A stretch of DNA of 56,883 nucleotides from a virus (IMGVR_UViG_3300033156_001123:1-56883), one strand, 5' to 3'. Positions 2,401 through 24,027 are shown, counted from the first letter of the stretch. Translations and numbers: made by a program. Notes: generated from the sequence alone by a model not told the origin.

Positions 2401-2768
2401 TAAATAACCTCCCTTAATATCAGTTCACCTTCGAAATAAGTTTCCCAGCCAGGGTCAAACATTGCTTGTAATGGTCTTTCTTCATTGATAATTCTAACAC
2501 TGATGCTATCTGTAGGATCATATTTTAAATCTGGATAAAAAGTTAACTTCGTTAAATTCTGCCACCAGTCTACAAATGTATCTCTATCAGTTCTGCTTAT
2601 TTTTGTTACAGGTACAATATACTTCCTTTTATTGCCCCATTCGTAAATATAGAGCTCACCATCTAAAGTTTTGTGAGCAGTTCTTGGTCTATCTTCAGGT
2701 ACTTCAAAACCTTTAGCAGGAGAAAATTCTATTGAAATAACTCCATCAGTTAATTTCATTACTCTCAT
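2400..2768 (-). CDS. distal tail (Dit-like) protein
   Basis: 122 aa between TMP and hub; HKTLDG...YEWG motif typical of this position. Confidence 0.55.
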   Translation of the reverse strand: MRVMKLTDGVISIEFSPAKGFEVPEDRPRTAHKTLDGELYIYEWGNKRKYIVPVTKISRTDRDTFVDWWQNLTKLTFYPDLKYDPTDSISVRIINEERPLQAMFDPGWETYFEGELILREVI

Positions 2769-5700
2769 TTTGCCACCAGCTCCCCAACTAAGTCTGAGGA
2801 TAAAATACCAGATCTTGCAGCATCTTTAATGGCAGGAATAAATTTTAGCCTGAATATGCGATTTATCTTGCTCTGGTCCAAATTCTCTAAATCAACATTT
2901 GGCAATTCTATAGTTACATTAATATCGCCAAATCTTATAATGTTACCAGCTCTCCCTCCAATCAATTTGACTGGCACTGCTCCTCCTTCTAAAGGAATAA
3001 TTGCTTCTGGTCTTCCTCCTTCTCCAACCAACCCTAAAGTCGGTTTAGTTACTACTGCTCCTCCTTGTGCTTCTAATGGTTCAAACCCACCTTTTGCTAT
3101 TCCTCCTTTTTCAAAACCAATAATCCCTGCTACGAGCCTGCCAATTCCTGCAACCACTGCTCCAGCAGCTGCCAGACCTAAAATCGGACCTACAAAAGGA
3201 ATTCCTGCAAAAGCTGCATACGCTGCAGCTGCTGCTTTTGCTGTGAACAAAGCTATCTCTTTCATAACAGTGAAAACAGTTTTAGCCAGCATAACTCCCA
3301 TAGCCCACACGTGTTTAGCTACAATTGCTAAAATAGATTTCTCTTCTACTTTCTGTCTGGTCTTTGCACCTGCAATTGTAGCAAGAGTCATCATTACTTG
3401 TTTAGCTATCCATTCACTTGCCATTTCAGCAACACTGCGGTAAAAAGATGTTTTAATTTCTTCCCAAATGCCATTCCAAAAATTCTCCCAGGTAGTCATA
3501 CCTCTCATCCATTCTTCAACTACAGGCACAAATCTACCTTTCATATCCTCATAGAATCCTGCAAACATTTCTCTCCAAGTAATAGTACTTTCGAGAATTT
3601 CGTCCGTAACTTCTCCAAGAGCAGTCTTTACCGGTGCAGTAATTTTCTCCCACTCATAGAATTTTTCGTAAAATTTACTTACACTACCTCTGGCTCTGTC
3701 CATTGCTCCAATTAAAGAATCTGTTGCTACAATCGTCGTACTAATTCCATATGCAGGTGCCTCTGGAAATTTACGAGACATCAAATCGTACATCTCACCC
3801 CAAGATTGTCTCGCTCCTTCCATCCAGTAAATAAACTCAGAGCCTTTTTCACTGACATCGGATAAGCCATAAGCTGGTGCTTCAGGAAACTTTCGGAAGA
3901 AAAGATTATAAAACTCCTGCCACGCTAATCGTGATTTTTCAATATAAGTAGCAAAATCTTTAGCCAATTCAATAAGCGTTGAAATTCCATACGCAGGAGC
4001 TTCTGGGAATTTGCGGGATAAAACATCGTAAAATTCTTTCCAAGCCATTCTTGCCTTCTCAATATGGACAGCGAAATCCTTAGATTTCTCTGTAATATCT
4101 GGAATACCGTATGCAGGAGGCTCAGGAAACTTTCTGGACATAAGATTATACATCTCCTGATATTCTTGCCTTGCTCCTTCGATATATACAGCAAAGTCTT
4201 TGGATAATTCTATGATGTTTGAAATACCATATGCTGGAGGTTCAGGAAACTTACGAGATAGAATATTATAGAACTCTTGCCAGCCTAATCTCGCACTTTC
4301 TACCCAAATAGCAAAATCTTTAAGTTTTTCTGTAACATCTGAGATACCATAAGCTGGAGATTCGGGAAACTTTCTGGACATAAGGTCGTACATTTCTTGA
4401 TATTTTCCTCTTGCTTCTTCAATATATATAGCAAAGTCCTTAGCCAAAGCCATAGTTGTGCTAAAACCATAAGCTGGAGCATCAGGGAATTTACGAGACA
4501 TTAGGTCATACATTTCTTGATATGCCAGCCTTGCTTCCTCAATATAATCAGCGAAGTCTTTAGACAGAAGTATAAGTCCAGCAAGCCCATAAGCTGGAGT
4601 TTCTGGAAATTTACGAAGTAATAGTTCATAGAACATCTGCCATTCTACTCTCGATTCTTCCACCCATTCAGCAAGTTCTAATCCTATTATTGACTCTATA
4701 TTCTCGTCTAATTTCACAAGTTCTTTATTCAAATTGCTCAATTCTCTCTTAAATTTTCCAGATTCTTCTGCTCCTTGACCAAATTCATCAGCAAGCTGGC
4801 TTGTGCTATTGGCAGCATCTAAAGCTGATTTTGAAGTTTCATTTATATTTTTTTCAACTTCTTCTAAGCGATTTTCAAGAATTGTAAAAGCTTTATCAAC
4901 ACTTACTCCCACCATTTTAGGTAACTTTTCAGTTACTGGCTTGAAGCCCTCTAATAAAGGAGTCCAATCAGGAGGTTCAATCTTCTTAAACCAGTTTTTA
5001 GGATTTAATTTCTTTATTACCCAGCCGACCCAAGATGTAATATTTTTGCCTAAATTAGTAAAAACAGTTAGCACTGCCTTACCAGCATCAATGAATATAT
5101 TTGGGAAATTACTTATAAACCAATCAATAAAATTCCCAATATTGATACCAACTGATTTAAAACTTTCAATTATTATTCTACCAAACCATTCAATATATGC
5201 ACCTGCTTTCTGAACAGACTTTCTAAAAGTTTCACTCCTCTGATATAACAGATACAAACCAGCAGCTGCTGCTGTAAGTCCTAATATAATCCACCCGCCA
5301 GGTCCCATTCCAGCAAAAGCTGTCATCAATGCTGGACCTAACTTTGATAAAACTGAAATAAAGAAACCTATTGCCCCTACAGTTTTCATTATTGTAGGAG
5401 CCATCATTAATAAAGACCCACCAACTGCTAATAACCCTCCCAGTACTATAGCAAATTTAATAAGCGCTGAAGTAAGCTTAGGATGAGCTTTTGTCCACTC
5501 TCCAATGCTTCTAACTATGTCCTTTATATCTGCAATCATAGGAGTCAAAGTAGGTAATAATACATCACCAAGGACTAATTGCACTTCTTCAACTGCTGAT
5601 TTTAACAATTTTAAGGTGCCTTGCCATGTATTAATTTGTCTTTCTGCCATCTCAGCAGCTTTATTCGTCCCTGTAATTCTATCCTCAAGTTCTTTAAGAG

Positions 5701-6631
5701 CTTCAGAGCCAGTAGCTAACATCCTTACCATTGCAGGTCCAGCTCTTAATCCAAACAATTTCATCGTTTGTTCAGTAGTAATACCAGCTTTGTTTAATGT
5801 TTCAATTATTTCAGTAAATTTGTGTGTAGTTGGTGACACATCTTCGATAGTAAGATTTAATTCAGCTAAAGTATCTCTCATTTCTTTGGTAGGATCCATT
5901 AATCTACTTAAAGCTCCTCTGAGAGCAGTACCTGCCATACTGGCATCTATACCAGCATTATATAATACACCTAATGCAGCTGCTGTTTCTTCCAAAGTAT
6001 AACCTAAACCAGCTGCCACAGGGCCGACATACTGCATAGAAATTCCTAATCTGTCCATTGTAGCTTGTGAAGAGCCTATTATTGCTGCAAAAGTATTGGC
6101 TACCTTAGTAGCATCTTCCGCTTGCATTTCAAATTGATTTAAAGTAGAAACTACTATTCTTGTTGTTTCAGCTAAATCATATTGTGTAGCAGCAGCGAGA
6201 TCCAAAGTTCCTGGTAAAGCCTTCATCATTTTATTAACATCATACCCAGCACTGGCCAAGTAATACATAGCATCAGCTGCTTCAGAAGCAGAGAATACAG
6301 TATCAGCTCCCATTTTCCTGGCAAATTCGCTCAATTCTTTCATTTGTTCAGAAGTAGCTCCAGCGACAGCACCAACATTTGCCATAGAATATTCAAATTT
6401 CCCAGCAGTATGTAAAGCAAATCCTAAACCAGCGACAATTGCTCCACCAGCTACAGTAGCTGCAAGCCCCATACTTCTGAAGTGCTGCTCGTTCTTTTTA
6501 ACGAAATCCCTTAGTCCTTTAGATTTTATTTCAGCTTGTTCGACTTTACTGCTATAATCTCTTAAAGGTTTACTGTAAGCATCAATAATTGCTAACTTGA
6601 GACCAAAACCTTCTCCAATATTAACAGGCAA
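2765..6631 (-). CDS. tail tape measure protein (TP901-type core)
   Basis: 1288 aa; FSASEAADAMYYLASAG, GIDASMAGTALR core; hydrophobic segments; C-terminal GEGGRPEAIIPL; follows the tail chaperones. Confidence 0.95.
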   Translation of the reverse strand: MPVNIGEGFGLKLAIIDAYSKPLRDYSSKVEQAEIKSKGLRDFVKKNEQHFRSMGLAATVAGGAIVAGLGFALHTAGKFEYSMANVGAVAGATSEQMKELSEFARKMGADTVFSASEAADAMYYLASAGYDVNKMMKALPGTLDLAAATQYDLAETTRIVVSTLNQFEMQAEDATKVANTFAAIIGSSQATMDRLGISMQYVGPVAAGLGYTLEETAAALGVLYNAGIDASMAGTALRGALSRLMDPTKEMRDTLAELNLTIEDVSPTTHKFTEIIETLNKAGITTEQTMKLFGLRAGPAMVRMLATGSEALKELEDRITGTNKAAEMAERQINTWQGTLKLLKSAVEEVQLVLGDVLLPTLTPMIADIKDIVRSIGEWTKAHPKLTSALIKFAIVLGGLLAVGGSLLMMAPTIMKTVGAIGFFISVLSKLGPALMTAFAGMGPGGWIILGLTAAAAGLYLLYQRSETFRKSVQKAGAYIEWFGRIIIESFKSVGINIGNFIDWFISNFPNIFIDAGKAVLTVFTNLGKNITSWVGWVIKKLNPKNWFKKIEPPDWTPLLEGFKPVTEKLPKMVGVSVDKAFTILENRLEEVEKNINETSKSALDAANSTSQLADEFGQGAEESGKFKRELSNLNKELVKLDENIESIIGLELAEWVEESRVEWQMFYELLLRKFPETPAYGLAGLILLSKDFADYIEEARLAYQEMYDLMSRKFPDAPAYGFSTTMALAKDFAIYIEEARGKYQEMYDLMSRKFPESPAYGISDVTEKLKDFAIWVESARLGWQEFYNILSRKFPEPPAYGISNIIELSKDFAVYIEGARQEYQEMYNLMSRKFPEPPAYGIPDITEKSKDFAVHIEKARMAWKEFYDVLSRKFPEAPAYGISTLIELAKDFATYIEKSRLAWQEFYNLFFRKFPEAPAYGLSDVSEKGSEFIYWMEGARQSWGEMYDLMSRKFPEAPAYGISTTIVATDSLIGAMDRARGSVSKFYEKFYEWEKITAPVKTALGEVTDEILESTITWREMFAGFYEDMKGRFVPVVEEWMRGMTTWENFWNGIWEEIKTSFYRSVAEMASEWIAKQVMMTLATIAGAKTRQKVEEKSILAIVAKHVWAMGVMLAKTVFTVMKEIALFTAKAAAAAYAAFAGIPFVGPILGLAAAGAVVAGIGRLVAGIIGFEKGGIAKGGFEPLEAQGGAVVTKPTLGLVGEGGRPEAIIPLEGGAVPVKLIGGRAGNIIRFGDINVTIELPNVDLENLDQSKINRIFRLKFIPAIKDAARSGILSSDLVGELVAK
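3726..4685 (-). repeat. eight tandem 120-bp (40-aa) coding repeats in the tape measure protein
   Basis: RKFPExPAYG recurs with an exact 120-nt period (PAYG codons near 3747, 3867 ... 4587). Confidence 0.95.
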
Positions 6632-6874
6632 CTAAAACCTCCCCCTCCTATATAATCCTTTGCTCCTTTCCTCAGCTTCTCTTAACTTCTGTTCTAACCT
6701 CATTTCTTTTTCTCTTTTCTTTCTTTCTTCTTCTAACTTTTCATTTCTCCACTTGTCATAATATTTCCATTCTACAAATTCCTTGGCACTCATTCGCATC
6801 CCTAATTCAGCTCGGGTCATGCCTAATCTTTCAGCTAATACAAAAGAGTAAATAAAATCTTCATCTGTCTCAAA
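6632..6874 (-). CDS. tail assembly chaperone C-terminal extension (lambda gpT-like), reached by +1 frameshift
   Basis: +1 frame is open from the chaperone stop: FETDEDFIYSFVLAERLGMTRAELGMRMSAKEFVEW, a typical gpT-like motif that starts upstream of the listed ATG. Confidence 0.8.
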   Translation of the reverse strand, partial: FETDEDFIYSFVLAERLGMTRAELGMRMSAKEFVEWKYYDKWRNEKLEEERKKREKEMRLEQKLREAEERSKGLYRRGRF

Positions 6875-6884
6875 ACCTACTCCT
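6870..6884 (-). promoter_or_regulatory. prfB-like +1 programmed frameshift cassette AGG AGU AGG UUU UGA
   Basis: internal SD, 3-nt spacer, then UUU-U overlapping UGA; the +1 frame carries the conserved gpT-like sequence. Confidence 0.7.
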
Positions 6885-7250
6885 TAAAGCTTCCTCCATT
6901 TCAGCTCCAAAACCAGAGAGCTCAGTTATTTTTCTTGTGATTCTATCCAGCACTGAAGCATTCTTTTCTCTCAATTTTTTAATGTCAGCTTTAGTGAATA
7001 CTTGGTTACCATCTTTATCCCTAATACCAACTATCAATACGGCCATTTGAAAATTTTCTCCTCTTTTTAGCTCATCTTCATCTCCAGTTCTGGCTGCTTC
7101 TAATGCTTCGCTTCTTTCTTGCTGAGTGAGTGATTTAATCCAAATAGTCACTCCCCATTCCTCAATTTTCATTGGCTCAAATTTAATGTCTTTTGCTGTG
7201 AAAATTTTCTCTCTAAGTTCCTCAGCTGTTAAATCTTTTTTTGCTGTCAT
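6870..7250 (-). CDS. tail assembly chaperone (gpG-like)
   Basis: IEEWGVTIWIKSLT...DKDGNQVFT...LREKNASVLDRI...ELSG; lies between tail tube and TMP. Confidence 0.85.
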   Translation of the reverse strand: MTAKKDLTAEELREKIFTAKDIKFEPMKIEEWGVTIWIKSLTQQERSEALEAARTGDEDELKRGENFQMAVLIVGIRDKDGNQVFTKADIKKLREKNASVLDRITRKITELSGFGAEMEEALRSRF

Positions 7251-7261
7251 TATTCTCTCCT

Positions 7262-7570
7262 TTAATAATTTATAAATCGTGGAGGCTCAGTAGCAACAAA
7301 AATCAATCTTGATTTTAATGTTTTACCAACTTGTGGCTGACCTCTGGGTTTACATTTAATTAATATCTTGCTGGGTCCAGCCAATAGAGATAACTCATAT
7401 TCACAGTCAGGCTCATACCAATATTCATTAAAATAGTATGAATCTACTTGAACTTCTATAGGATTTCCAGTCATTGAAAACTCCCATCCACCAACATTGC
7501 CTACTACCAAGCCTCCACGTAATATATGACCAATTTTTCCTTTAATTATAGACTCACCTAACACATTCAC
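7262..7570 (-). CDS. hypothetical tail protein (possible degenerate tail-tube paralog)
   Basis: IKGKIGHI...VGNVGGWEFS resembles the tail-tube N-terminus VHGKGGYL...VDQLHGWSLS. Confidence 0.5.
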   Translation of the reverse strand: MNVLGESIIKGKIGHILRGGLVVGNVGGWEFSMTGNPIEVQVDSYYFNEYWYEPDCEYELSLLAGPSKILIKCKPRGQPQVGKTLKSRLIFVATEPPRFINY

Positions 7571-7578
7571 CTCCTAAA

Positions 7579-7977
7579 CTAAAAACCAGATTCGTGTAAC
7601 TGTCCAACTCCAGTCAAAGTCCCCGAAATATCAATAGCACCATCCACAGGCACATCAAGATCAAAATCACACCAAGCATCACCATAAAAATATTTGGTCA
7701 AATCACTTTTTTCTGGATACAGATACACATCTTTTTCAGTAGTAGAATTCACCACATCATAAAACTTACCCACATTAGCTCTATCATAATAAGCAGAGAA
7801 ACTACCAGACCAGCTACCCTGACCTCTCACTGAATCTTTATATTCTTCTCCCTGCTGTGGTGTATCAACTATATCTCTGGAAAAACTTAGGCTCCAACCA
7901 TGTAGCTGATCTACCACTCCTATCCCTTCAATAATCAAATACCCACCTTTTCCGTGAACTTTAGAAATTTTAACCAC
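7579..7977 (-). CDS. major tail tube protein (possible AUU start at 7968)
   Basis: SKVHGK...WSLSFSRDIVDT...GQGSWSGSFSAYYD...GTLTGVGQL siphoviral tube pattern; upstream of the chaperones. Confidence 0.85.
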   Translation of the reverse strand: MVKISKVHGKGGYLIIEGIGVVDQLHGWSLSFSRDIVDTPQQGEEYKDSVRGQGSWSGSFSAYYDRANVGKFYDVVNSTTEKDVYLYPEKSDLTKYFYGDAWCDFDLDVPVDGAIDISGTLTGVGQLHESGF

Positions 7978-8008: not shown

Positions 8009-9170
8009 CTATAATTTAACAAGTTGTAAAAGCTTTTCAGCTCTATTTAAATATGTGTGTTTCTTAATTTTTCTGTTACCATTTTGAGCAATTTTTTTTC
8101 TTTCTTCTTCATGCTCCAAATAATAAAATATCTTTTCAGCTGCATCTTTAGCGTCTTTATAAATCACAAGATCCTCACCAGGAACAAACAAGTCATCAAT
8201 TTCTTTCCTATAATCAGTCATTAAGAAACCACCAGCAGCCAATATTTCATATACTCTGGGATTTAAGCTGTAAGGCTCTATCTCTTCAACTCGGCTTTCT
8301 CCAGTTTTAATATTCCTTACTATTTTTTTGGACTCATTAACTCTAAAATGATTCAATACTATTTTTGAATTAGCATAGTACCGAATAACTTCATACTTGC
8401 TCAATGTAATTGGAATATAAAAAGGTTCCAACTGTGGACACAGTCCCTTATCCATAGAAGGGAACACTCCAAAAATTTTAAAAGCTACTTTCCCTTTAAT
8501 ATAAGAGACCAAGTCTGTCAAGAATTCAATTCTTCCAGGTACCTCAGATCCTACAAAAAACAAATCTGGGGTATATACAATTTGTTCCCATCTTTTCAGC
8601 TCAGTTTTCCATTCATAGTGTGAATTATAACCTACTGGCAAATAATAACTATTCGGATTGAATCTACGATATATTTTTTCACAAGCTTTATCACAAGTAA
8701 ACACATAATCATATAATGGTGCTCTTTGAATTTCATGGGCAATATTATAAGGTGATTCTGTAAACCAGATAACCTGTTTCATATGAGGAAATCTCTCCTT
8801 AATCAAAGCTGGCACCCAAGCTGGTATATATTGACCTGTGATATAAATTATCAACTTTGGCCAAAGATGAACAACTGTAGTTATTAATCCTTGGCAAGCT
8901 GCCGAGTAAACATCCTTCCAAGCAACCCTATCATCAGTGCCTTTTAAAAAATATTGCACTGCTTGACGATAAAACTTCAGTCTATCCTTTAGCTCAAAAG
9001 GATATACTTCCTGTCCCATCATTTTAAGAGCATCTCCCAATCCATAATAAACATCCACAGTACTAATACCATGGCCTTTTTCAGCCAGGCTCAACAAGCA
9101 AGATTTTAAATTTCTTGCTGGCTGAGCCTGGTTTGAACGCCTCCTTTTTGCTATTTTTTATCATTGACAT
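8009..9170 (-). CDS. CgeB-like GT-B glycosyltransferase; 29-codon N-terminus (9170..9084) joined to the main ORF across a 10-nt gap
   Basis: C-terminal FVGS...YANSKIVLN...NPRVYEILAAGGFLMTD...HTYLNRA; the first-strand motif KILLVEPG lies in a separate upstream frame with an AAGGAG RBS. Confidence 0.8.
9074..9131 (-). promoter_or_regulatory. candidate translational-bypass element: 18-bp hairpin, take-off GGC, UGA, AAAA, landing GGC
   Basis: CCAGGCTCA/TGAGCCTGG and AGCAAGA/TCTTGCT arms; matched GGC codons at 9086-9084 and 9076-9074 flank the stop. Confidence 0.6.
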
Positions 9171-9849
9171 AATTCTTACTCCTTTGTCTTGCAATATTAG
9201 ACAAAACCATTCTCCAAAATTCTCTATCTCTTCTTATGCTTAAATGGCATTGTGTGCACAAACTGATAAGATTTTCAGGTGAATTATTCTCAGGTTGCTC
9301 ATCTATATGATGAACTTCTAATTGTCTTATACATTCTCTCTCTGGTACTCCACAAATCTGGCACTTATAATCATCCCGCTGTCGAATAATAGCTCTCAAT
9401 TGCTTAAATTCTGGTGGATAAGGCTTATAACTCCTGCCATCTATCCAAGATGGATTTAGTTCTCCACAAAATCTACCTTTTAAGGATTCAGAGATTTTCT
9501 TCCTTACTTCTTCTCGACAAGCTGGATTATATTTTTTCATCCATTCTGCTTGTAAAGCAATTCTTCTATCAGTCTCCTTATTTTTCCCTTTATTCCAAGG
9601 AGCTTTAATCTTCCGACGATCAATTTTAGGCTTTTTAATTTTATATCCTGATTTTCCTTTATTCCAAGGGATATGACCTTTCTGAAAACCATTCTTATTT
9701 CCCAATAAAGCTTTACTCATCTTCTCTCTGGTCTCTGCTGTAGGTCTTTTTCCTCTATGTGATTCACTTAACTTTTGTCTAATTTCAGCTGCTCTCTCTT
9801 TGCCATATTCTTGTTCTAAGCTAATTCCTTTCCGATGAGACTTTCTCAT
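9151..9849 (-). CDS. free-standing HNH homing endonuclease with NUMOD3 repeats
   Basis: ETREKMS/PWNKG repeats; RDDYKCQICG...LEVHHID...NNSPENLISLCTQCH. Confidence 0.9.
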   Translation of the reverse strand: MRKSHRKGISLEQEYGKERAAEIRQKLSESHRGKRPTAETREKMSKALLGNKNGFQKGHIPWNKGKSGYKIKKPKIDRRKIKAPWNKGKNKETDRRIALQAEWMKKYNPACREEVRKKISESLKGRFCGELNPSWIDGRSYKPYPPEFKQLRAIIRQRDDYKCQICGVPERECIRQLEVHHIDEQPENNSPENLISLCTQCHLSIRRDREFWRMVLSNIARQRSKNYVNDKK

Positions 9850-9860
9850 TTTATCCTCCT

Positions 9861-10499
9861 TTAATATCCATCAACCTTTCTACCCATATAAGCGAATGCT
9901 AATTGGCCCACCTTATTTCTCCATCTCCTCCAACCGTACCTCACAAGTCTGGACACAATACATTCAAAATGTTTATCAACTATATCTCTAAACCAGCTGT
10001 ATGTTAAACTGTGTTTGTGTGCTGGATGTGGGTTAATTATACTATTATTTATACAACAATGAACAGCTAAAAAACCCCCTGGTCTCAATATTCTCCACAT
10101 TTCTTTGATAGCTTTAGCTGGATTTTCAAAATGGTCTAAAGCGTTCATACACAGAACCAAATGAGCAAAATTATTCTCCAGTGGCAAATTCTCTGCTACC
10201 CCTTGAATCCAAACTATAGATGTATCTCTGGGAATCACTTTAACATATTCATCAATTAAAGGGTCAACAGCAACTTTCATAATAGCTTCTGGTATATATA
10301 CTAAAGCTGAAATCGGTCCGCTACCTACATCAATGATTATTTTATTGTCCAATCTCAACAAGTTAACCCCCATTTCTTCCAGCATTTTTGGATACCTAAC
10401 TTTTTCTCTTTCAAGTTTTTCCCATCTTTTTTCTTCGTCTGATAATAGCCAAGTTGATAATTCAGCTTTCAATACTTCATTCATTTGGCACACTCCCAA
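9861..10499 (-). CDS. class I SAM-dependent methyltransferase (probable start ATG 10484)
   Basis: IIDVGSGP, GVAENLP, NALDHF, EMWRILRPGG. Confidence 0.9.
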   Translation of the reverse strand: MGVCQMNEVLKAELSTWLLSDEEKRWEKLEREKVRYPKMLEEMGVNLLRLDNKIIIDVGSGPISALVYIPEAIMKVAVDPLIDEYVKVIPRDTSIVWIQGVAENLPLENNFAHLVLCMNALDHFENPAKAIKEMWRILRPGGFLAVHCCINNSIINPHPAHKHSLTYSWFRDIVDKHFECIVSRLVRYGWRRWRNKVGQLAFAYMGRKVDGY

Positions 10500-11244
10500 A
10501 AATTAAAGGCTTTCTGCTAACCCCTACTTCTTTACCTTTCCACCTCATGCTTGTAAAAGGTTCACCAAACCCAAAATTGGTCACTAAGTCTATTTTTGGT
10601 AAAGCTATCCAATATCCTTCTTTTTTCAAGTGCATCTTATATTCATAGTCTTCTCCAAATGCCCACGAGCCTTCAATAAAATCTCCATATTTTTCATATA
10701 TCTCTCTCCTAAAAGCCATTGCTGAGCCAACCTGATCTTCATGAATTTCAATAGTCAAACCATCTCTGGTAACTTCTTTAATCAACATTTTTCTCCAATC
10801 ACAAGGGTCATACCAATATTTGAACAATCCCAAAACTCCAATCTCTGGAAATGTTTCAAGAATTGCCACAGCTTTTTCAAGCCACAAGGGTTTAAATTCC
10901 AAATCAGAATCCAACTTGAACAAATATTTTCCGTGAGCACAGTGAAATCCTTTATTAATTGATGCTCCTACCCCTTGATTCTTGCCTGCATTTAGAATTA
11001 AACAGCTTAATTCTTTAGCTTTATATAACCTTAAAAGAAATTCCACATTCTCCTCTTCCATCGAACCATCATCTACTATTATGAGTTCGTACGGATATTT
11101 GGTATTTTTCTTCAATGAAGCAATTGTAGTATGAAGAAATTGTGGCCTGTTAAAAGAAAGAACTACCAAACTTGCTAATGGTTTACCTCCTACTGTAATG
11201 TATGGAATCCTATTTTCTTTATCATCTAAAAATTTCTTTTGCAT
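10477..11244 (-). CDS. GT2 glycosyltransferase
   Basis: SLVVLSFNR, IIVDDGS, KLDSD, GEDYEY. Confidence 0.9.
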   Translation of the reverse strand: MQKKFLDDKENRIPYITVGGKPLASLVVLSFNRPQFLHTTIASLKKNTKYPYELIIVDDGSMEEENVEFLLRLYKAKELSCLILNAGKNQGVGASINKGFHCAHGKYLFKLDSDLEFKPLWLEKAVAILETFPEIGVLGLFKYWYDPCDWRKMLIKEVTRDGLTIEIHEDQVGSAMAFRREIYEKYGDFIEGSWAFGEDYEYKMHLKKEGYWIALPKIDLVTNFGFGEPFTSMRWKGKEVGVSRKPLIFGSVPNE

Positions 11245-11765
11245 TACTTAACTGCCATCAAAGTTGTAAACAAACCTTCGCCTTGAACAAAATTCTTTAA
11301 TACTTCAAATCTGGCTCTAACTCCGTAAGCTTCTCTGTCTCTGTTATCAGCTGAAGGCAGCCACCATGACCATAAATCTGGATGAATTAATCTTTTGTGG
11401 TCAGGATGTGCATATGCATATTTAGATGTCCACAGAGGATTAATCATTTCTAATATGCCTTTTCTTTTCAACACTCTCCAAATTTCTTCCATAACAAAAA
11501 TCAAATTGTTCACATGCTCCATAAAATGCGAAGCATAAATAAAATCTATAGTGCAATCTCCAAAAGGCAAACCATGTTTATCCACATCCCTAACAATATC
11601 AACTCCAGGACATTTATAATTATCAATTCCTATAAAACCAGGAGGAATTTGCCTTTTTCTATCTCCACAGCCAAGATCAACTTTTACGCAATTTGGATTC
11701 GTTAATGGTAAAGCTATTGAATCACTACTTGTTAATCTCAACTTAACTTGAATACTTTCAATCAT
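11244..11765 (-). CDS. small class I SAM-dependent methyltransferase
   Basis: VDLGCG, LPFGDCTID, SHFMEH, EEIWRVLK, HPDHKR. Confidence 0.85.
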   Translation of the reverse strand: MIESIQVKLRLTSSDSIALPLTNPNCVKVDLGCGDRKRQIPPGFIGIDNYKCPGVDIVRDVDKHGLPFGDCTIDFIYASHFMEHVNNLIFVMEEIWRVLKRKGILEMINPLWTSKYAYAHPDHKRLIHPDLWSWWLPSADNRDREAYGVRARFEVLKNFVQGEGLFTTLMAVK

Positions 11766-12793
11766 AGTATGCTACAAACCCTTTTTCTATTTTTGTGCGC
11801 CCAATCCCAAATTATGTCTATTACTTGTTTTGGATTGAGTTTTGGCTGCCAATACTTCGAGACTTTCCTGATATCACTTACATATACCAAGTGGTCAGCT
11901 GGCCTCCAATTTTGATACACTACTCTATATGGCCGTTGGTCTAAATTAGATAGATATTCTAATACTTCAATCAGTGATACAGTATTATTAGGTCCACCAC
12001 CAACATTATACACTTGGCCTTTGTGTACATCTATATCTTCAATCTCTTTCAAAAACAAATCAGCCAAATCTCCAACATATAACACATCCCTAACTTGCTT
12101 ACCATCACCATAAATATTTATCACAGCATCAACCATTTTAGCATAAACAAACCAAGATACCCACCCTTGTTCTTCTTTACCAAGCTGCCTTTCCCCAGCT
12201 ATACAGCTCATCCTATTCACAACAGTAGGAACACCATAAGTATGATAATATTCTTGGCAATATCTATCTCCTATATATTTAGAACAACCATATGGGCTAT
12301 AAGCGGCTCTACCTCCAGAGTCAACTGGAAAACCTTCAGGGATACCTAAAATAAATTTTTTGTCTATCCATTTTCTCTTATTGTCAAAGATCTTAGATTG
12401 AATTTCATTTACTTCACAAGAATAAACTTTATTAGTGCTACAATAAATTACTGGCATTTTACCATTATTCTTGGCCAATTCAAGCACATTTAAAGTACCT
12501 AAAGCATTTACTTCAAAGTCATAAATGGGATCTTCAATTGAAGCTGGAACTCCTGGCTGTGCTGCTGTGTGAATAATGGCATCAACATTTTTAATTCTGG
12601 ACAGCTGGTCATAATTCCTTACATCTCCCTTTATAAAAACAAAATTCTGATTTTTGCTCAATTCCTCTAAGTTGCTTTCTGAGCCTTTTCTGCACAAATT
12701 ATCAAAAGCAACCACATTGTACCCTCTACTTAAAGCTCTCAATGCCACATTTGTACCAATAAAACCACAGCCACCAGTAATTAATATTAGCAT
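11762..12793 (-). CDS. CDP-paratose 2-epimerase (tyvelose epimerase)-like SDR
   Basis: GGCGFIG, STNKVY, SPYGCSK, NRMSCIAGERQ, QGWVSWF, GKQVRDVLY. Confidence 0.8.
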   Translation of the reverse strand: MLILITGGCGFIGTNVALRALSRGYNVVAFDNLCRKGSESNLEELSKNQNFVFIKGDVRNYDQLSRIKNVDAIIHTAAQPGVPASIEDPIYDFEVNALGTLNVLELAKNNGKMPVIYCSTNKVYSCEVNEIQSKIFDNKRKWIDKKFILGIPEGFPVDSGGRAAYSPYGCSKYIGDRYCQEYYHTYGVPTVVNRMSCIAGERQLGKEEQGWVSWFVYAKMVDAVINIYGDGKQVRDVLYVGDLADLFLKEIEDIDVHKGQVYNVGGGPNNTVSLIEVLEYLSNLDQRPYRVVYQNWRPADHLVYVSDIRKVSKYWQPKLNPKQVIDIIWDWAHKNRKRVCSIL

Positions 12794-13621
12794 CTATGCT
12801 CTCCTTTCATTCTTAACATATTCTCCAATACATTCTGGAATCACTTCCTCAATATTTCTTACTTTAAAGCCCGATTGTTCAAGTTTTTGAGTGGACAAAA
12901 TCAGATTAGTCCTATTAAGTCCCAATTCCTCAAAGTCAATAACTTTATATTCAAACTCTGGGTGTGCTTTTTTGTAATATTCCATTAATTGTGGGTATCT
13001 TAGCCCACCTTTATTAACAACATTATATACTCCTCTTGCATCAATTGAAATCAAATGTTCTACAGCTTTTATAAAGTCAGGGATATATGTAATAGAATTT
13101 GGAATATCTATAACTTTTTTATATTTGATTAGCTTAGTCAGAAGATTATGTGAGTGAACCTTTACGTCCAGAGGAATTCTAATCCTGACGATTAAAATTG
13201 GGTAACTTTCAGCTAAAACTGATAATGCCCTTTCTGCATAGATTTTGGATCTTGAATAAAAAAGCTTGAAATAATCTGGCGGTAAATTCTCTGTGATGAT
13301 CTCAGACCCATGATAATGATAAATACAACCACTGCTAATATGAATCATTTTAATTCCTTTCCTAATAGCAATTTCAGCTAAAATAATAGGAATTGCCACA
13401 TTAGCAAATATTGTTTTATCTTTATCTGTTTCACAATCATCAACATTATTAACTCCTGTATAACCTATACAATTGATTATAATTGATGGTGAATACTTTT
13501 GGATCTCATTCTCAGCATCCTCAAAAGTATAAATCTTACGATCTGATATTTCACATTGTAACCCCTCCAAAAGCCTACCGCCTATAAATCCCTTACCGAT
13601 TATTAGAATTTTTTGTTTCAT
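12794..13621 (-). CDS. NDP-4-keto-6-deoxyglucose 3,5-epimerase/4-reductase-like SDR (NRS/ER, RmlD-like)
   Basis: GKGFIG, TGVNNVDDCE, SSGCIY, FYSRSK, RIRIP, KVIDIPNSIT closely follow the NRS/ER pattern. Confidence 0.75.
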   Translation of the reverse strand: MKQKILIIGKGFIGGRLLEGLQCEISDRKIYTFEDAENEIQKYSPSIIINCIGYTGVNNVDDCETDKDKTIFANVAIPIILAEIAIRKGIKMIHISSGCIYHYHGSEIITENLPPDYFKLFYSRSKIYAERALSVLAESYPILIVRIRIPLDVKVHSHNLLTKLIKYKKVIDIPNSITYIPDFIKAVEHLISIDARGVYNVVNKGGLRYPQLMEYYKKAHPEFEYKVIDFEELGLNRTNLILSTQKLEQSGFKVRNIEEVIPECIGEYVKNERRA

Positions 13622-14108
13622 TTTCTATAACCTTTGATGCCTCCAATAAATTTGCAGCAATTGTTGGACTTAAAGGACTCTTAACCAAAATGCTCCTGCA
13701 GCCCAAAGTATCAGCAGCTACTAAATCAGACAGACTATCTCCTATTACATATGATTCCTTAACATCTATATTCCAATCTCTAATAGCTTTCACAAACATA
13801 CCCAATTTCGGCTTTCTGTCACTACTATAATCTGGACAAACATAAATTGCATCTATAGTTATTCCAAATTTTTCAAATTCTTTTTTCATGTGTTCATGAA
13901 TAGCATTTACATCTTGTTCTGTTGCTTTACCTAAATAAATACCAAATTGATTCGTGATAATAATTATCAAATATCCCAATCTTTTAAATCTCTTCAAAGC
14001 ACCAATGACTCCAGGAAGAATCTTAAAATCCTCAACTTTAGTAACATATTTTCCTGGCTCAACATGATTAATTACCCCATCTCTGTCTAAAAATACTGCT
14101 TTATTCAT
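13593..14108 (-). CDS. gmhB: D,D-heptose 1,7-bisphosphate phosphatase
   Basis: AVFLDRDGVIN, ITNQ, RKPK.GM, IGDS.SD; inside the heptose cluster. Confidence 0.9.
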   Translation of the reverse strand: MNKAVFLDRDGVINHVEPGKYVTKVEDFKILPGVIGALKRFKRLGYLIIIITNQFGIYLGKATEQDVNAIHEHMKKEFEKFGITIDAIYVCPDYSSDRKPKLGMFVKAIRDWNIDVKESYVIGDSLSDLVAADTLGCRSILVKSPLSPTIAANLLEASKVIENETKNSNNR

Positions 14109-14644
14109 TACCTCCTACCCTTCAAATAACTTGAAATTGAGTGTGCTATCGCAAGATGTATATCCTCTACCATCTCATAGTTCTTTAGTCCAACTCCTAT
14201 ATATTTATCGCAACATTCAGCTACCTGTCCACTACCCGAAAAGCCTAACAAAGCAAATACAATCATCCCAATCCTTTTAGCAACTTTTGCTGCCTCAACT
14301 AAATTCTTCGAATTACCAGAAACTGAGATTATCATTAATATATCCTGGTCAGTACCAAACAATTTCAATTGCTCTGAGTAACTTTTTGAAAAATCTATAT
14401 CATTCGACAAAGCTGTCACCAAGCCCGAATTGTCAACCAGCGAGATAGCTCTAATACCACAATTCTTCACTAAGTCAGTAGCAAAATGGCTCGCAGTTTC
14501 AGCAGATCCACCATTCCCAACAATATATATTTTACCTTCACATATTTTTATATACTCAGCCATATAGCCAATATCATCTATATAATCAGCAATTGACTCC
14601 AAGAAATAAGCTGTCAAATGAGCAAAATAATCATCAATTTTCAT
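14108..14644 (-). CDS. gmhA: phosphoheptose (sedoheptulose-7-P) isomerase
   Basis: GNGGSA, TALSND, ISVSGNSKN, VEDIHL. Confidence 0.9.
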   Translation of the reverse strand: MKIDDYFAHLTAYFLESIADYIDDIGYMAEYIKICEGKIYIVGNGGSAETASHFATDLVKNCGIRAISLVDNSGLVTALSNDIDFSKSYSEQLKLFGTDQDILMIISVSGNSKNLVEAAKVAKRIGMIVFALLGFSGSGQVAECCDKYIGVGLKNYEMVEDIHLAIAHSISSYLKGRR

Positions 14645-15570
14645 TTTATTCCCAAAACCTCCTTCTTAATCCATTCAGCTGTCAGCCTAATTGCCTCCTC
14701 TGGTGGAACTTTTGGATTATAACCCAGTACCTTCCTTGCTTTTTCATTGGAGAATAGCTCTCTTTGTCCAAACTCACCAGGTCTATATGGTTTTTCAATA
14801 ATCGGCACTCTTTTTCCACAAGCTTTCATACACAATTCAGCTATATCTCTCACTTTTAATTCTTTACCATAACTGACCTGAAATTTTTCTCCGACCACTT
14901 TCTCCCTTGGTGCTTGAATAGCTAATTCCCAAGCATCTAAAACATCATCAACATAAGTAGTATCTCTTGTTTGGTCGCCTCCTTCCAGAATTATTGGTTT
15001 ATTTCTCAAAATATTATAAATCCATTTGAATACAAAAATTTCTCTCCTCATACCAGGACCACAAATATATCCATTACTCATTACTACAATTGGAACCTTA
15101 TAACTTCTATACCACGCCCAGCAAGCCAATTCCTGTGCACATTTACTCCAAGAATAAGGATTGTGTGGCATCAAAGGATGATCTTCATCTATAGGTAAAT
15201 ACAATGGCCTGCCCCATTCATTACCTGAACCAGCATATATCAATTTCTCAATTTTGACTTTTCTGGCTGCTTCCAATAATGCCACTGTGCCCATAGCATT
15301 TTCCCAAGCAGTCCAAACTGGAGAAGGAAAACCCATTGGCACATCCGCTTGTGCACAGAAGTGAACAACAATATCATGGCCTTCAATATCTTCAGGTTGA
15401 ATATCATGAACAGCTTTCCATAAATAATTTAGTTTTGGATTATCAATATCTAAACCTGAATGCAGAGGAGCCACAATATCCAGAGCTGTTACTTCATAAC
15501 CTTTTTTCAGCAGCCTTTTAGTCAACCCAGATCCACCAAAACCAGCTGCTCCAGTAATTAGTACTTTCAA
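14641..15570 (-). CDS. NAD-dependent nucleotide-sugar epimerase/dehydratase
   Basis: TGAAGFGG, NPYSWSK, GGDQTRD, RPGE; embedded among the heptose genes. Confidence 0.85.
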   Translation of the reverse strand: MKVLITGAAGFGGSGLTKRLLKKGYEVTALDIVAPLHSGLDIDNPKLNYLWKAVHDIQPEDIEGHDIVVHFCAQADVPMGFPSPVWTAWENAMGTVALLEAARKVKIEKLIYAGSGNEWGRPLYLPIDEDHPLMPHNPYSWSKCAQELACWAWYRSYKVPIVVMSNGYICGPGMRREIFVFKWIYNILRNKPIILEGGDQTRDTTYVDDVLDAWELAIQAPREKVVGEKFQVSYGKELKVRDIAELCMKACGKRVPIIEKPYRPGEFGQRELFSNEKARKVLGYNPKVPPEEAIRLTAEWIKKEVLGIK

Positions 15571-15581
15571 GGTATACCTCC

Positions 15582-16556
15582 TTAATTAACATAAATTATC
15601 CTTGAACCCTCGAAATCAAATCTGAAAGGCACTTCTATTAACGGCCAAAGTGATTCTCTAACTTTTTGACGATTATATTTCTCAACAAATAAAAGAAGAA
15701 AACCTCTACCTCCAGCTCCGCACAGCTTACCACCTAATGCACCTGCCATTTTCGCTGTTTCATAAATTGTATCAATATCTTCATTCGTGATTAATTTAGA
15801 TAATTTCTTCTTCAGCTTCCATTCTTCATCCAACAGTAAACCAAAATCTGTAAGTTCTTTACCTTCTTCCAAACAATCTTTCATTTCATATGCCAATTCT
15901 CTCATCTCTTTCAAGACCAAATAGTTCTCTTTAAAGTTATAAGTAGAAATTACATCAGAAGCTCTCTTCCGCTTACTTATACCAGTATAAATTAACATCA
16001 GACTTTGATTTAATTCATCTTTAATCTCAGGTTCACAAAGTATAGGCTTGATATTTACCGCATCATTAGATTCAAACTCTATAAGGTTCAAACCTCCATA
16101 TGCTGCAGCATATTGGTCTTGTTTGCCTATATGCTCTTTAAGAATATCTATCTCTATTGCACAGGCTAACTCTGCCAATTCTGTTCTTGACAAATATTTA
16201 CTTTTCAGTGCACACAGAGCATTTAACAAGCCAACAGTAAAACTTGAAGAAGACCCTAAACCTGTCGCTTGAGGAATATCTGCAATTGAGGCTATATCAA
16301 CACCACTCACATTGATTAATTTTAAACATTCTCGAATAATAGGGTGTTTAATTTGATTAACTTTTTCAGCTTCCTCTACTTCAGAGTAGCACGCCCTTAT
16401 TCCACCGTCAAATCTTCTATTTAGAAAAATATACATATAGCGATTGATAGTTGTAGAAATTACTGCTCCAGTTTCTAAACCATAAAAATCCTTAATATCA
16501 GTACCGCCACCAGCAAAGCTAATTCTAAATGGTGTTCTTGAGATTATCATTGGCAA
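15582..16556 (-). CDS. hddA: D-glycero-alpha-D-manno-heptose-7-phosphate kinase (GHMP)
   Basis: RTPFRISFAGGGTD, GLGSSSS, GKQDQYAAAYGG, GGKLCGAGGRGF. Confidence 0.9.
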   Translation of the reverse strand: MPMIISRTPFRISFAGGGTDIKDFYGLETGAVISTTINRYMYIFLNRRFDGGIRACYSEVEEAEKVNQIKHPIIRECLKLINVSGVDIASIADIPQATGLGSSSSFTVGLLNALCALKSKYLSRTELAELACAIEIDILKEHIGKQDQYAAAYGGLNLIEFESNDAVNIKPILCEPEIKDELNQSLMLIYTGISKRKRASDVISTYNFKENYLVLKEMRELAYEMKDCLEEGKELTDFGLLLDEEWKLKKKLSKLITNEDIDTIYETAKMAGALGGKLCGAGGRGFLLLFVEKYNRQKVRESLWPLIEVPFRFDFEGSRIIYVN

Positions 16557-16583
16557 ATCTCCTAAATTTTTAATAACACATTT

Positions 16584-17261
16584 TTAAATCCCAACCATTT
16601 CTTTTTTAAATTTCTGCAGTCCAGAAAAAGTTCCAATATCATAAAACTTATTCTTACTTATATATGTTTTTACTTGTCTTTCAGAAATTAACTTCGGTAA
16701 TACTTCCTTTTCAAATGAAATAAAATATTTATCAGGAAATAAATTGAATATACCTTTATTCATTACCGAAACTCCTGCATCAATATAAACTGGGTCAAAA
16801 CCTGATTTGCTATATTCAATTAAATCACCATGCTGACCAATTTTACAATTTGCTTTTTCAGCTTCGCACACAACCATCATCATTAACCTATTGGATCTTT
16901 TAAATAACTTATATAACTCCAAATAATCAATATCTAAATAAGTATCTCCATTAACTACAAAAAAATCTTCTCCCAATAGATTTTTAGCTAATTTCAGTGA
17001 ACCTCCAGTGCCTGCTGGAATAACTTCATGGCTATATTCAATATTAACACCAAAAGCAGCTCCATCTCCAAAATATTTTTTTATCTGCCCACCTAAATAG
17101 CCAGTACAAATAACTAAATTAGCGATCTTATTCTTTTTCAACAGCCTAATCACATATTCCAAAAATGGGTATATACCTATCCTAATCATGGGCTTTGGCT
17201 CCAAATATGTCAAAGGTCTTAATCTTGTACCTTGTCCACCCGCCAAAATAACTGCTTGCAT
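16584..17261 (-). CDS. hddC: heptose-1-phosphate guanylyltransferase-like nucleotidyltransferase
   Basis: ILAGGQGTRLR, PKPM, GTGG, VNGDTY, FYDIGT; adjacent to hddA. Confidence 0.75.
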   Translation of the reverse strand: MQAVILAGGQGTRLRPLTYLEPKPMIRIGIYPFLEYVIRLLKKNKIANLVICTGYLGGQIKKYFGDGAAFGVNIEYSHEVIPAGTGGSLKLAKNLLGEDFFVVNGDTYLDIDYLELYKLFKRSNRLMMMVVCEAEKANCKIGQHGDLIEYSKSGFDPVYIDAGVSVMNKGIFNLFPDKYFISFEKEVLPKLISERQVKTYISKNKFYDIGTFSGLQKFKKEMVGI

Positions 17262-18883: not shown

Positions 18884-19172
18884 CTTTTCTTTTCCTGATG
18901 TTTCTGAAATTTAACAAATTCTTCTGCAAGAGTTGCCAGTTTATCTAATTTTTCACTAATAGTGGCAAGTTTAGAATTTATATTCAACGATCTATCTTCC
19001 TTTGGTTTTGGCCAAACAAATAATACGGATTCCAAAACATAATCCTCTTTTTTTCTACAATCTTCTTTAACTCTTCTACTGCTGTATCAAAGTCCTTGAT
19101 ATAATATTCTTCTGATTTATTCCATCCTTTAATAACTACCTTTATCATCTTTGCTGGGTCAATTAATGCCAT
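18880..19172 (-). CDS. small hypothetical protein; 62-aa form and ~97-aa form via -1 shift at A_AAA_AAG
   Basis: -1 frame is open from 19047 to a TGA that overlaps the next gene's GTG (GTGA). Confidence 0.6.
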
Positions 19173-23454: not shown

Positions 23455-23467
23455 TTAAACTCGTCCT

Positions 23468-24007: not shown

Positions 24008-24027
24008 CTTTAACTCCCTGTTTTTTA

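What the first reader, a model, noticed from the sequence alone, without database searches (positions are those of the whole stretch)
6820..6890. Tail assembly chaperone uses a prfB/RF2-style +1 frameshift instead of the usual -1
Seen: the chaperone ends AGG AGU AGG UUU UGA G. The -1 frame closes after about 12 codons. The +1 frame reads ETDEDFIYSFVLAERLGMTRAELGMRMSAKEFVEW up to the TMP start (205-aa fusion). Established: bacterial prfB uses AGG GGG UAU CUU UGA, the same geometry (SD, 3-nt spacer, YUU-U overlapping UGA); lambda-type gpG/gpGT normally uses a -1 heptamer. Inference: the G:GT ratio could depend on host RF2 activity.
Basis: partly seen in the sequence, partly recalled or inferred. 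Interest (0 to 1): 0.75.

Follow-up and report, generated by a model that had tools for sequence, protein, structure and literature searches.

The report
Plus-one frameshift in phage tail chaperone
This uncultured phage very probably makes a short and a long tail-assembly helper protein by letting some ribosomes slip one base forward exactly at the stop codon, a rarer relative of the usual backward slip that copies the signal bacteria use to control release factor 2.

Summary
On the minus strand the chaperone G (6870-7250, 126 aa) ends UUA AGG AGU AGG UUU UGA. The -1 frame closes after 13 codons. The +1 frame stays open for 79 codons, up to the codon before the tape-measure start, giving a 205-aa fusion.

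The +1 reading is real. Against a 97%-identical sister contig, 18 of 18 changes in G are synonymous in frame 0. In T, 12 of 13 are synonymous in frame +1 and 0 of 13 in frame 0. T-domain homology starts at the slip site and runs through the "start" Met 6820.

Of 80 related viral loci, 71 keep T in the -1 frame behind A_AAA_AAC or G_GGA_AAC heptamers. Five keep it in +1, and they form one clade with the window. Every +1 sequence has Arg-UUU-pyrimidine at the junction.

Only the window and its sister add a UGA in the A site and a 7-nt Shine-Dalgarno match at prfB spacing. So the conserved core is a UUU_Y slip, and the prfB-like stimulators are lineage-specific and untested.

Forward-slipping tail chaperones, UUU_Y sites and UUU_UGA prfB sites are all in print, and this scan met UUU_C chaperone sites on other DNA. 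I rate it a new variant of a known kind.

The parts
7579..7977 (-). Major tail (tube) protein gene, upstream of the chaperone
   Evidence: phrog_1407 major tail protein, E 6.5e-12
6870..7250 (-). Tail assembly chaperone G, 126 aa, frame 0, stop included
   Evidence: phrog_344 tail assembly chaperone, E 3.2e-23. Pfam Phage_TAC_13 scores 26.6 bits, below its cut-off of 28.8. All 18 differences from sister contig L001 are synonymous in frame 0
6880..6886 (-). Internal Shine-Dalgarno-like UAAGGAG. Its UAA is also the last +1-frame stop before the site
   Evidence: Seven contiguous matches to UAAGGAGGU, in the register of the E. coli prfB AGGGGG with a 3-nt spacer to the P-site codon. A run of 7 or more in that register occurs at 7 of 16,427 codons. 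It is kept in L001 but is absent at this spacing in the other +1 relatives
6876..6878 (-). AGG (Arg125), the E-site codon at the moment of the slip and the 3-nt spacer
   Evidence: AGG in 5 of 6 +1 lineages and CGA in the sixth. AGG is not rare in this window, at 12.6 per 1000 codons
6872..6875 (-). Slip site UUU_U: tRNA-Phe moves from UUU (6875-6873) to UUU (6874-6872)
   Evidence: This is the only position in the 4-codon overlap of the two frames that allows re-pairing. UUU plus a pyrimidine is present in all 6 +1 lineages, including two GC-rich ones where TTT is the minor Phe codon
6870..6872 (-). UGA stop of G (read by RF2 only), followed by G
   Evidence: Sequence. UGA is used as a stop by 20 of the window's 60 ORFs
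6632..6871 (-). T segment in the +1 frame: 79 codons plus TAG stop, with no start codon of its own before ATG 6820
   Evidence: phrog_337 and phrog_14766 tail protein match residues 8-40. 12 of 13 differences from L001 are synonymous in +1, against 0 of 13 in frame 0 and 1 of 13 in -1. It aligns without gaps to T domains of -1 and +1 relatives
2765..6631 (-). Tape measure protein, TTG start directly after the T stop and in the same frame
   Evidence: phrog_1533 tail length tape measure protein, E 5.2e-103

Best explanation
This is a programmed +1 ribosomal frameshift at AGG_UUU_UGA. Most ribosomes translating G reach Phe126 (UUU in the P site) with UGA in the A site, and release factor 2 frees the 126-aa chaperone. 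In a minority, peptidyl-tRNA-Phe slips one base forward from UUU onto the overlapping UUU. GAG then enters the A site and translation runs on for 79 codons, giving a 205-aa G-T fusion (...ALRSRF-ETDEDF...). That fusion ends one codon before the tape-measure gene starts. By analogy with lambda gpG/gpGT, the G part would hold the tape measure and the T part would recruit the tube protein. The UUU_Y slip is the conserved core of a +1 sub-clade inside a chaperone family that otherwise slips -1. In this lineage the slow A-site codon is a stop, and a UAAGGAG placed at prfB spacing probably raises the slip rate by pairing with 16S rRNA. Shown here: the frames, selection on the +1 frame, conservation of the site, and the sequence geometry. 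Inferred: that the slip is ribosomal, its rate, the Shine-Dalgarno effect, the RF2 competition, and the roles of G and T.
For: Identity and position: G is a phrog_344 tail assembly chaperone (E 3.2e-23) lying between the major tail gene and the tape measure gene. Frames: the fusion is 205 aa and the -1 frame is closed. Selection: against L001 there are 31 differences in 619 nt. In G 18 of 18 are synonymous in frame 0. In T 12 of 13 are synonymous in +1, 0 of 13 in frame 0 and 1 of 13 in -1. Family survey: of 80 IMG/VR loci, a T-domain HMM found T in 76, with 71 in the -1 frame behind ...EKN/...GN ends and 5 in +1 (L009, L020, L021, L022, L023). Site conservation: every +1 sequence has AGG UUU C/U, and Microcystis phage Mae-JY09 has CGA UUU C. 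The +1 frame opens 8-20 nt before UUU and frame 0 stops 0-9 nt after it in 7 of 8 sequences, so the shared overlap is AGG UUU. The conserved Met-Thr lies exactly 17 codons after the slip in all 6 lineages. Phylogeny: the five +1 rows form one clade with 99/97 support among -1 rows. Shine-Dalgarno: a run of 7 or more in the exact register occurs at 7 of 16,427 codons, and no start codon follows it in the +1 frame. Host: the sister contig is binned in a Candidatus Omnitrophota MAG, and that MAG's prfB carries AGAGGU-UAU-CUU-UGA. [quoted passage not shown] Twenty-one low-GC genomes have TTTTTGA in prfB with the Shine-Dalgarno sequence and spacing kept (PMC12421855).
Against: There is no protein or ribosome data. 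The Shine-Dalgarno match and the adjacent stop are found only in the window and its 97% sister, which is 1 of 6 +1 lineages, so neither is needed for the shift in this family. This part of G is rich in Arg and Glu, which makes AGGAG-like strings likelier here than the window-wide rate suggests: the coding strand holds 65 AAGGAG and 167 AGGAG outside ribosome-binding sites. The same UAAGGAG lies 5 nt before a TTG (6873) that opens a 13-codon ORF in the -1 frame, so it could be an incidental or minor initiation site. The base after UGA is G, not C. UUU_U is reported as much less efficient than CUU_U in the prfB context (PMC5009743). The host assignment rests on metagenomic binning only, and the contig is at 36% GC against 41-44% at three loci of the MAG.
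Confidence: 0.8

Rival explanations
1. The +1 slip is the same UUU_Y slip, but it is plain. The Shine-Dalgarno-like string is a by-product of the Leu-Arg-Ser codons and gives no stimulation. The stop is just one more slow A-site codon, a one-base change from the CGA seen in L020.
For: Four of the 5 other +1 lineages have no Shine-Dalgarno match at this spacing or only a partial one, and all 5 have a sense codon after UUU. SD-like strings are common inside genes of this purine-rich coding strand. UUU_Ynn shifts +1 without a stop (PMC5009743).
Against: A 7-base match in the exact prfB register is rare here, at 7 of 16,427 codons, and this is the only in-frame UUU_Y in the 60 ORFs preceded by a run of 6 or more. 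It survives in the sister contig although the adjacent base changed.
Confidence: 0.3
2. T is made on its own from ATG 6820 as a 62-aa protein, and no fusion exists.
For: ATG 6820 opens a 62-codon ORF. The differences from L001 all lie downstream of it, so that pair alone cannot exclude this reading.
Against: The Met is the internal, conserved 'G-M-T' of the T domain in 8 of 9 aligned T sequences. The 17 codons before it are conserved in the +1 frame and of fixed length in 6 lineages with different DNA. The PHROG matches start 9-10 residues before the Met. There is no usable Shine-Dalgarno sequence before ATG 6820, only AGG one base away.
Confidence: 0.05
3. The offset is an assembly or sequencing error in the T run, or G-T is a decaying gene.
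For: A homopolymer of four T sits at the junction.
Against: A separate contig with 31 differences in 619 nt has the same TTTT. Four more contigs at 35-57% GC keep the +1 offset with other sequences after UUU. Both frames evolve under purifying selection.
Confidence: 0.02
4. The +1 frame is reached by another route: a -2 ribosomal slip as in phage Mu, or transcriptional slippage.
For: -2 and +1 lead to the same frame. A -2 chaperone shift is reported for Mu (Xu, Hendrix and Duda 2004; recalled, seen only in reference lists).
Against: No tRNA in the 4-codon overlap can re-pair 2 bases back (GGU for tRNA-Phe). A run of 4 T is far shorter than known polymerase slippage runs (my knowledge). There is no 3' structure: z = 0.07 against shuffles.
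Confidence: 0.03

Closest known systems
Lambda gpG/gpGT-type tail assembly chaperone frameshift (Levin, Hendrix and Casjens 1993; Xu, Hendrix and Duda 2004), as described in PMC5009743 (passages)
   Same: The gene order is tube, then chaperone, then T extension, then tape measure. A short product and a C-terminally extended product come from one start. T has no start of its own. The nearest cultured relatives (Streptomyces phages Dubu and phiSASD1) are annotated with the joined CDS.
   Different: The direction is +1, not -1. There is no X_XXY_YYZ heptamer, and the shift occurs on the last sense codon with the stop in the A site.
Bacterial prfB (RF2) autoregulatory +1 site, including its natural UUU_UGA variant in low-GC bacteria (PMC12421855, passages)
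   Same: A Shine-Dalgarno-like element, a 3-nt spacer, a YUU codon whose tRNA can re-pair one base on, and a UGA stop. There is no 3' structure. The MAG that holds the sister contig has such a prfB site.
   Different: The product is not RF2, so there is no feedback loop. The base after the stop is G, not C. The element sits at the end of a gene rather than after about 25 codons. The stimulators are not conserved in relatives.
Forward (+1) frameshifts already annotated or proposed in tail chaperones: SEA-PHAGES actinophages (350 forward against 2,368 backward sites; PMC10274946, passages), and archaeal virus HSTV-2 'very likely +1' (PMC5009743)
   Same: A +1 route to the long chaperone, and a run of identical bases as the slip site.
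   Different: Those accounts stress a rare A-site codon. I found no printed case of a chaperone with the stop as A-site codon plus a Shine-Dalgarno sequence at 3 nt (searches). Supplements were closed and may list such sites.
Listeria phages PSA, A118 and A500 major tail gene tsh: +1 at CCC_UGA (PMC5009743, passages)
   Same: A phage structural gene in which a +1 slip occurs on the last sense codon against a UGA stop.
   Different: The gene is the tube protein, not the chaperone. The slip codon is CCC (Pro), and no Shine-Dalgarno element is described in the passages read.
UUU_Ynn +1-prone sites in bacteria (Schwartz and Curran 1997, seen only as a reference), Yersinia YopN-TyeA, and influenza PA-X UCC_UUU_CGU (PMC5009743)
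   Same: tRNA-Phe slips from UUU to UUY. The relatives' AGG_UUU_CGA/CGC resembles the UUU_CGU cassette.
   Different: Those are not tail chaperones. Here the A-site codon of the window is a stop.

Membership tests
Lambda-type G/GT tail assembly chaperone pair | G belongs to a tail assembly chaperone family | tested here: met
   phrog_344, E 3.2e-23. Pfam Phage_TAC_13 scores 26.6 bits, just under its 28.8 cut-off. 2,767 relatives at E<=1e-3
Lambda-type G/GT tail assembly chaperone pair | Located between the major tail gene and the tape measure gene | tested here: met
Lambda-type G/GT tail assembly chaperone pair | T ORF overlaps the end of G in another frame, lacks its own start, and is under selection | tested here: met
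Lambda-type G/GT tail assembly chaperone pair | -1 slip on an X_XXY_YYZ heptamer | tested here: not met
   The -1 frame closes after 13 codons. Among related loci, 71 of 80 do have the -1 arrangement
Lambda-type G/GT tail assembly chaperone pair | Two products at a fixed low ratio, both needed for tail assembly | not testable with these tools
   This needs protein analysis
prfB/RF2-type +1 frameshift cassette | P-site codon whose tRNA re-pairs in +1 (YUU_U) | tested here: met
   UUU_U at 6875-6872
prfB/RF2-type +1 frameshift cassette | RF2-read stop (UGA) as the A-site codon | tested here: met
   UGA at 6872-6870. The MAG holding the sister contig has prfB and a second release-factor homolog
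prfB/RF2-type +1 frameshift cassette | Shine-Dalgarno-like element 3 nt before the shift codon | tested here: met
   UAAGGAG at 6886-6880 in the register of AGGGGG. A run this long in this register occurs at 7 of 16,427 codons. Its function was not tested
prfB/RF2-type +1 frameshift cassette | Weak stop context (C after UGA) | tested here: not met
   UGA is followed by G
prfB/RF2-type +1 frameshift cassette | Elements conserved among homologs | tested here: not met
   The stop plus the Shine-Dalgarno element occur in the window and L001 only, which is 1 of 6 +1 lineages
prfB/RF2-type +1 frameshift cassette | Feedback: the product is the factor that reads the stop | tested here: not met
   The product is a tail chaperone
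UUU_Y +1 shift-prone site | In-frame UUU followed by a pyrimidine, at the frame junction, conserved | tested here: met
   All 6 +1 lineages, with U or C after UUU. 9 of 150 family representatives end ...RF plus 0-4 residues whose first codon can begin with C or U (protein level only)
UUU_Y +1 shift-prone site | Slow or rare A-site codon | tested here: inconclusive
   In the window CGA is 2.8, CGC 1.3 and CGG 1.4 per 1000 codons. Counts in the relatives' 3-kb loci are small, come from stop-to-stop frames, and are not uniformly low

The most novel reading that the evidence does not exclude
One lineage of a +1-slipping chaperone clade has converted its slip site, by a single C-to-U change (CGA to UGA) and the gain of a Shine-Dalgarno match at 3-nt spacing, into a full copy of the host's RF2-sensing cassette. 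The G:GT ratio, and with it tail assembly, would then be set by competition between RF2 and the slip. A phage structural ratio would in effect be coupled to the host's own autoregulated termination capacity.
Probability: 0.4. Interest if true: 0.6.

Novelty: new variant of a known kind. Interest (0 to 1): 0.45.

Why it matters
The finding shows one chaperone family holding both solutions to the same problem of making a little long form beside much short form. About nine in ten sampled relatives slip backward and a single clade slips forward. Inside that clade the pause codon varies naturally between CGA, CGC, CCG and UGA. That makes a compact natural series for asking what sets +1 efficiency at UUU_Y, and whether a Shine-Dalgarno element and a stop codon add to it outside prfB. 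For annotation, this clade is currently called as two genes. An example is the Microcystis phage Mae-JY09 pair, labelled as hypothetical proteins. No cultured phage of the clade was found in the phage collection by tblastn with two of its members.

Tried and rejected
- **Reads:** Homopolymer length therefore rests on two separate contigs only. The run search listed 3 DNA runs and no RNA holder.
- **Single-protein scans:** scans of viral contigs with P0004, P0006 and P0007 found no locus. A 16-row alignment was too diverse to search with. A 6-row alignment found only the sister contig and one 52% relative in viral, metagenome and genome collections.
- **Cultured phages:** tblastn of P0012 and P0011 against cultured-phage records gave no match.
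- **Relatives of a virus record:** these cannot be drawn.
- **16S rRNA:** none was found in the MAG, so its anti-Shine-Dalgarno sequence was not read. Use of Shine-Dalgarno sequences is inferred instead from 37 of 60 ORF starts having such a motif.
- **3' RNA stimulator:** the 93 nt after the site fold no better than shuffles, z = 0.07.
- **Phage-borne tRNA:** none in the window.
- **AGG as a hungry rare codon:** rejected, because it is the second most used Arg codon.
- **Rare-codon pause in relatives:** not established.
- **ORF 7262-7570 as a frameshift extension of the tube protein:** rejected, because a stop lies just before its start and it has its own AGGAGG.
- **Literature:** Schwartz and Curran 1997 is not held.
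- **One versus two origins of +1:** the tree needs 2 changes because Mae-JY09 sits apart on a long branch. Starred branches do not exclude a single origin.

Full report
**What is there.** The window is a 56,883-base virus record judged about 39% complete, with 35% GC. Nearly all of its genes lie on the minus strand. The tail module reads as follows:
- major tail protein, 7579-7977 (phrog_1407, E 6.5e-12);
- an unassigned ORF, 7262-7570;
- a 126-aa tail assembly chaperone G, 6870-7250 (phrog_344, E 3.2e-23; Pfam Phage_TAC_13 at 26.6 bits, just under its cut-off);
- a 1,288-aa tape measure protein, 2765-6631 (phrog_1533, E 5.2e-103).

G ends GCU UUA AGG AGU AGG UUU UGA G. The -1 frame stops after 13 codons. 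The +1 frame is closed by UAA 8 nt before UUU. It then stays open for 79 codons to a TAG, and the next in-frame codon is the tape measure's TTG start. Reading UUUU as one step gives a 205-aa protein.

**The +1 frame is translated.** A second contig (L001, also recovered as L008, L010 and L012) differs from the window at 31 of 619 positions across G and T.
- In G, 18 of 18 differences are synonymous in frame 0.
- In T, 12 of 13 are synonymous in frame +1, 0 of 13 in frame 0 and 1 of 13 in frame -1.
- The sister contig has the same TTTT, with AGU changed to AGC beside it.

An assembly error is therefore very unlikely.

**T is an extension, not a separate gene.** The +1 product matches T-type tail-protein families from residue 8 or 9 onward, which is before the Met of ATG 6820. 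I aligned it with T segments of Streptomyces phages Dubu and phiSASD1, where the joined chaperone CDS is annotated. I also used Moraxella Mcat phages, three Omnitrophota-genome loci and two +1 relatives. That Met turns out to be the internal Met of a conserved ...L-G-M-T-x-x-E-L... motif. No start codon lies in the +1 frame between the slip site and that Met, and no usable Shine-Dalgarno sequence precedes it.

**Family survey.** A full HMMER search found 2,767 relatives of G at E<=1e-3. Of the best 150 representatives, 9 end in ...R-F plus 0-4 residues and 58 end in ...K-N or ...G-N. Most of the remaining 83 carry ...EKNS... followed by a tail.

I obtained DNA for 80 viral loci: 79 of the 80 kept, leaving out L008 because it is the sister contig, plus L009. 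I located T in them with an HMM built from nine T segments.
- T was found in 76 of 80. The four misses were L042, L063, L069 and L094.
- In 71 it lies in the -1 frame, typically right after A_AAA_AAC or G_GGA_AAC.
- In 5 it lies in the +1 frame (L009, L020, L021, L022, L023). L020 and L021 are identical at the site.

Three Omnitrophota-genome homologs (L017-L019) are also of the -1 type.

For the tree I collapsed identical G proteins. Of the 51 sequences given, 50 rows were used and L030 was dropped. The five +1 rows, including the window, form one clade with 99/97 support among -1 rows. Microcystis phage Mae-JY09 is also +1 but sits elsewhere on a long branch, so one or two origins of +1 both remain possible.

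**The conserved site.** Every +1 sequence has Arg-Phe at the junction:

| Sequence | Site |
|---|---|
| Window and L001 | AGG UUU UGA |
| L020/L021 | AGG UUU CGA |
| L009 | AGG UUU CGC |
| L022 and L023 | AGG UUU CCG |
| Mae-JY09 | CGA UUU CCU |

The +1 frame opens only 8-20 nt before UUU, and frame 0 closes 0-9 nt after it, in 7 of 8 sequences. Mae-JY09 has a wide overlap. The only stretch common to all the overlaps is AGG UUU. After a slip at UUU, the conserved Met-Thr lies exactly 17 codons on in all six lineages, without gaps.

UUU is kept even in the two GC-rich loci, where TTT is the minor Phe codon in my rough counts: 14 TTT against 41 TTC in L020, and 2 against 18 in Mae-JY09. This argues for selection on the bases rather than on the residue. 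tRNA-Phe can re-pair perfectly one base forward on UUU_U or UUU_C, and no other codon in the window's four-codon overlap can. I therefore place the shift at UUU with high confidence.

**The prfB-like features.** Aligned on the shift codon, the window reads AGGAGU-AGG-UUU-UGA against the E. coli AGGGGG-UAU-CUU-UGA. The wider string UAAGGAG gives seven Watson-Crick pairs with the usual anti-Shine-Dalgarno sequence in that same register.
- A run of 7 or more in that register precedes 7 of 16,427 in-frame codons in the window's 60 ORFs, this site included. A run of 5 or more precedes 0.48% of codons.
- Allowing the register to move by one base either way, a run of 7 or more occurs at 0.16% of codons.
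- This is the only in-frame UUU_Y site with a run of 6 or more.
- The host clearly uses Shine-Dalgarno sequences: 37 of 60 starts have one.

Natural prfB genes with UUU in place of CUU exist in low-GC bacteria, with the Shine-Dalgarno element and spacing kept (PMC12421855, passages).

The sister contig is binned in a MAG whose record title names Candidatus Omnitrophota. That MAG's prfB carries AGAGGU-UAU-CUU-UGA-U ahead of a typical RF2 body in the +1 frame. If the binning is right, the host's ribosomes already respond to this kind of signal.

**Against a role for these features.**
- They occur in only 1 of 6 +1 lineages.
- The C-terminal helix of G is rich in Arg and Glu, so purine strings are locally enriched. 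The window holds 65 AAGGAG and 167 AGGAG outside ribosome-binding sites.
- The same string lies 5 nt before a TTG that opens a 13-codon ORF in the -1 frame.
- The base after UGA is G, not C.
- UUU_U is reported to be much weaker than CUU_U in the prfB context (PMC5009743).

A weaker site would in fact suit a chaperone, since the long form of lambda is made at about 1 in 30 (PMC5009743). That last link is inference.

**Mechanism and what is inferred.** The frames, the selection on them and the conserved UUU_Y are shown here. That the event is a ribosomal P-site slip follows from established work on UUU_Ynn and prfB (PMC5009743). If the slip happens on the last sense codon, it must compete with termination at UGA, which only RF2 reads. 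A single C-to-U change turns the CGA of L020 into the window's UGA while keeping Phe and the next +1 codon GAG. This suggests how the variant arose. I found no 3' structure and no phage tRNA.

**What is already known.** Forward shifts in tail chaperones are already annotated in quantity. Among SEA-PHAGES actinophages, 350 of 2,718 positive slip sites are forward (PMC10274946, passages). A forward shift is also proposed for the archaeal virus HSTV-2 (PMC5009743). Listeria phages shift +1 at CCC_UGA in their tube gene (same paper).

Earlier notes of this scan report conserved UUU_C +1 sites in chaperones of other phages. Here the conserved UUU_Y and the stop coincide.

I found no printed chaperone case combining UUU_UGA with a Shine-Dalgarno element at 3 nt (searches). 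Supplementary tables, which were closed, could hold some.

**Verdict.** This is a real and well-supported +1 chaperone frameshift. It is a new variant of a known kind, with moderate interest.

Noticed in passing
window 6629-6646 (minus strand): The T ORF ends AGG GGG AGG UUU UAG UUG. This is a second Shine-Dalgarno-3 nt-UUU-stop arrangement, here with UAG. The tape-measure TTG start is the very next codon in the same frame, so T and the tape measure are separated by a single UAG. The GGAGG is most simply the tape measure's ribosome-binding site, and a +1 slip here would end after 13 codons. It shows that such geometry can arise at gene junctions for ordinary reasons.
   Followed up: partly
window 8009-25715 (minus strand): A block of roughly 17 kb of sugar-modification genes sits between the tail tube gene and the head genes. 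It holds glycosyltransferases, SAM methyltransferases, three NAD epimerase/dehydratase genes, SIS and HAD proteins and a radical-SAM protein, with an HNH/NUMOD3 endonuclease at 9151-9849.
   Followed up: partly
L012 / G001; L013 1440-1530: A 97%-identical 56,298-base contig is binned in a MAG titled Candidatus Omnitrophota. That MAG's prfB has the programmed +1 site AGAGGU UAU CUU UGA U. GC is 36% for the contig against 41-44% at three MAG loci. Only 4 of 401 genomes sampled from that phylum have a homolog of this chaperone.
   Followed up: partly
L005 (Microcystis phage Mae-JY09, PP395641.1) 753-1305: The chaperone and T ORFs are annotated as two hypothetical proteins. T is in the +1 frame and the junction holds CGA UUU CCU, so a +1 frameshift seems to have gone unannotated.
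   Followed up: partly
window 2765-6631 (minus strand), about residues 640-1000 of the tape measure: The tape measure contains at least eight tandem copies of a motif of about 40 residues (...SRKFPE[AP]PAYG...DFA.YIE.AR..[WY]QE[MF]Y...), seen in the translation.
   Followed up: no
window 6832-6873 (minus strand): A 13-codon ORF in the -1 frame (TTG at 6873, MRQMKILFTLLY) starts 5 nt after the UAAGGAG and ends 12 nt before ATG 6820. It is probably meaningless, but it is an alternative reason for the Shine-Dalgarno string.
   Followed up: no
window 7262-7570 (minus strand): The ORF between the tube gene and the chaperone has no Pfam or PHROG match. The tube gene also ends UUU UAG, but the next ORF is in its -1 frame behind a stop and has its own AGGAGG, probably with GTG 7564 as its start.
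   Followed up: partly
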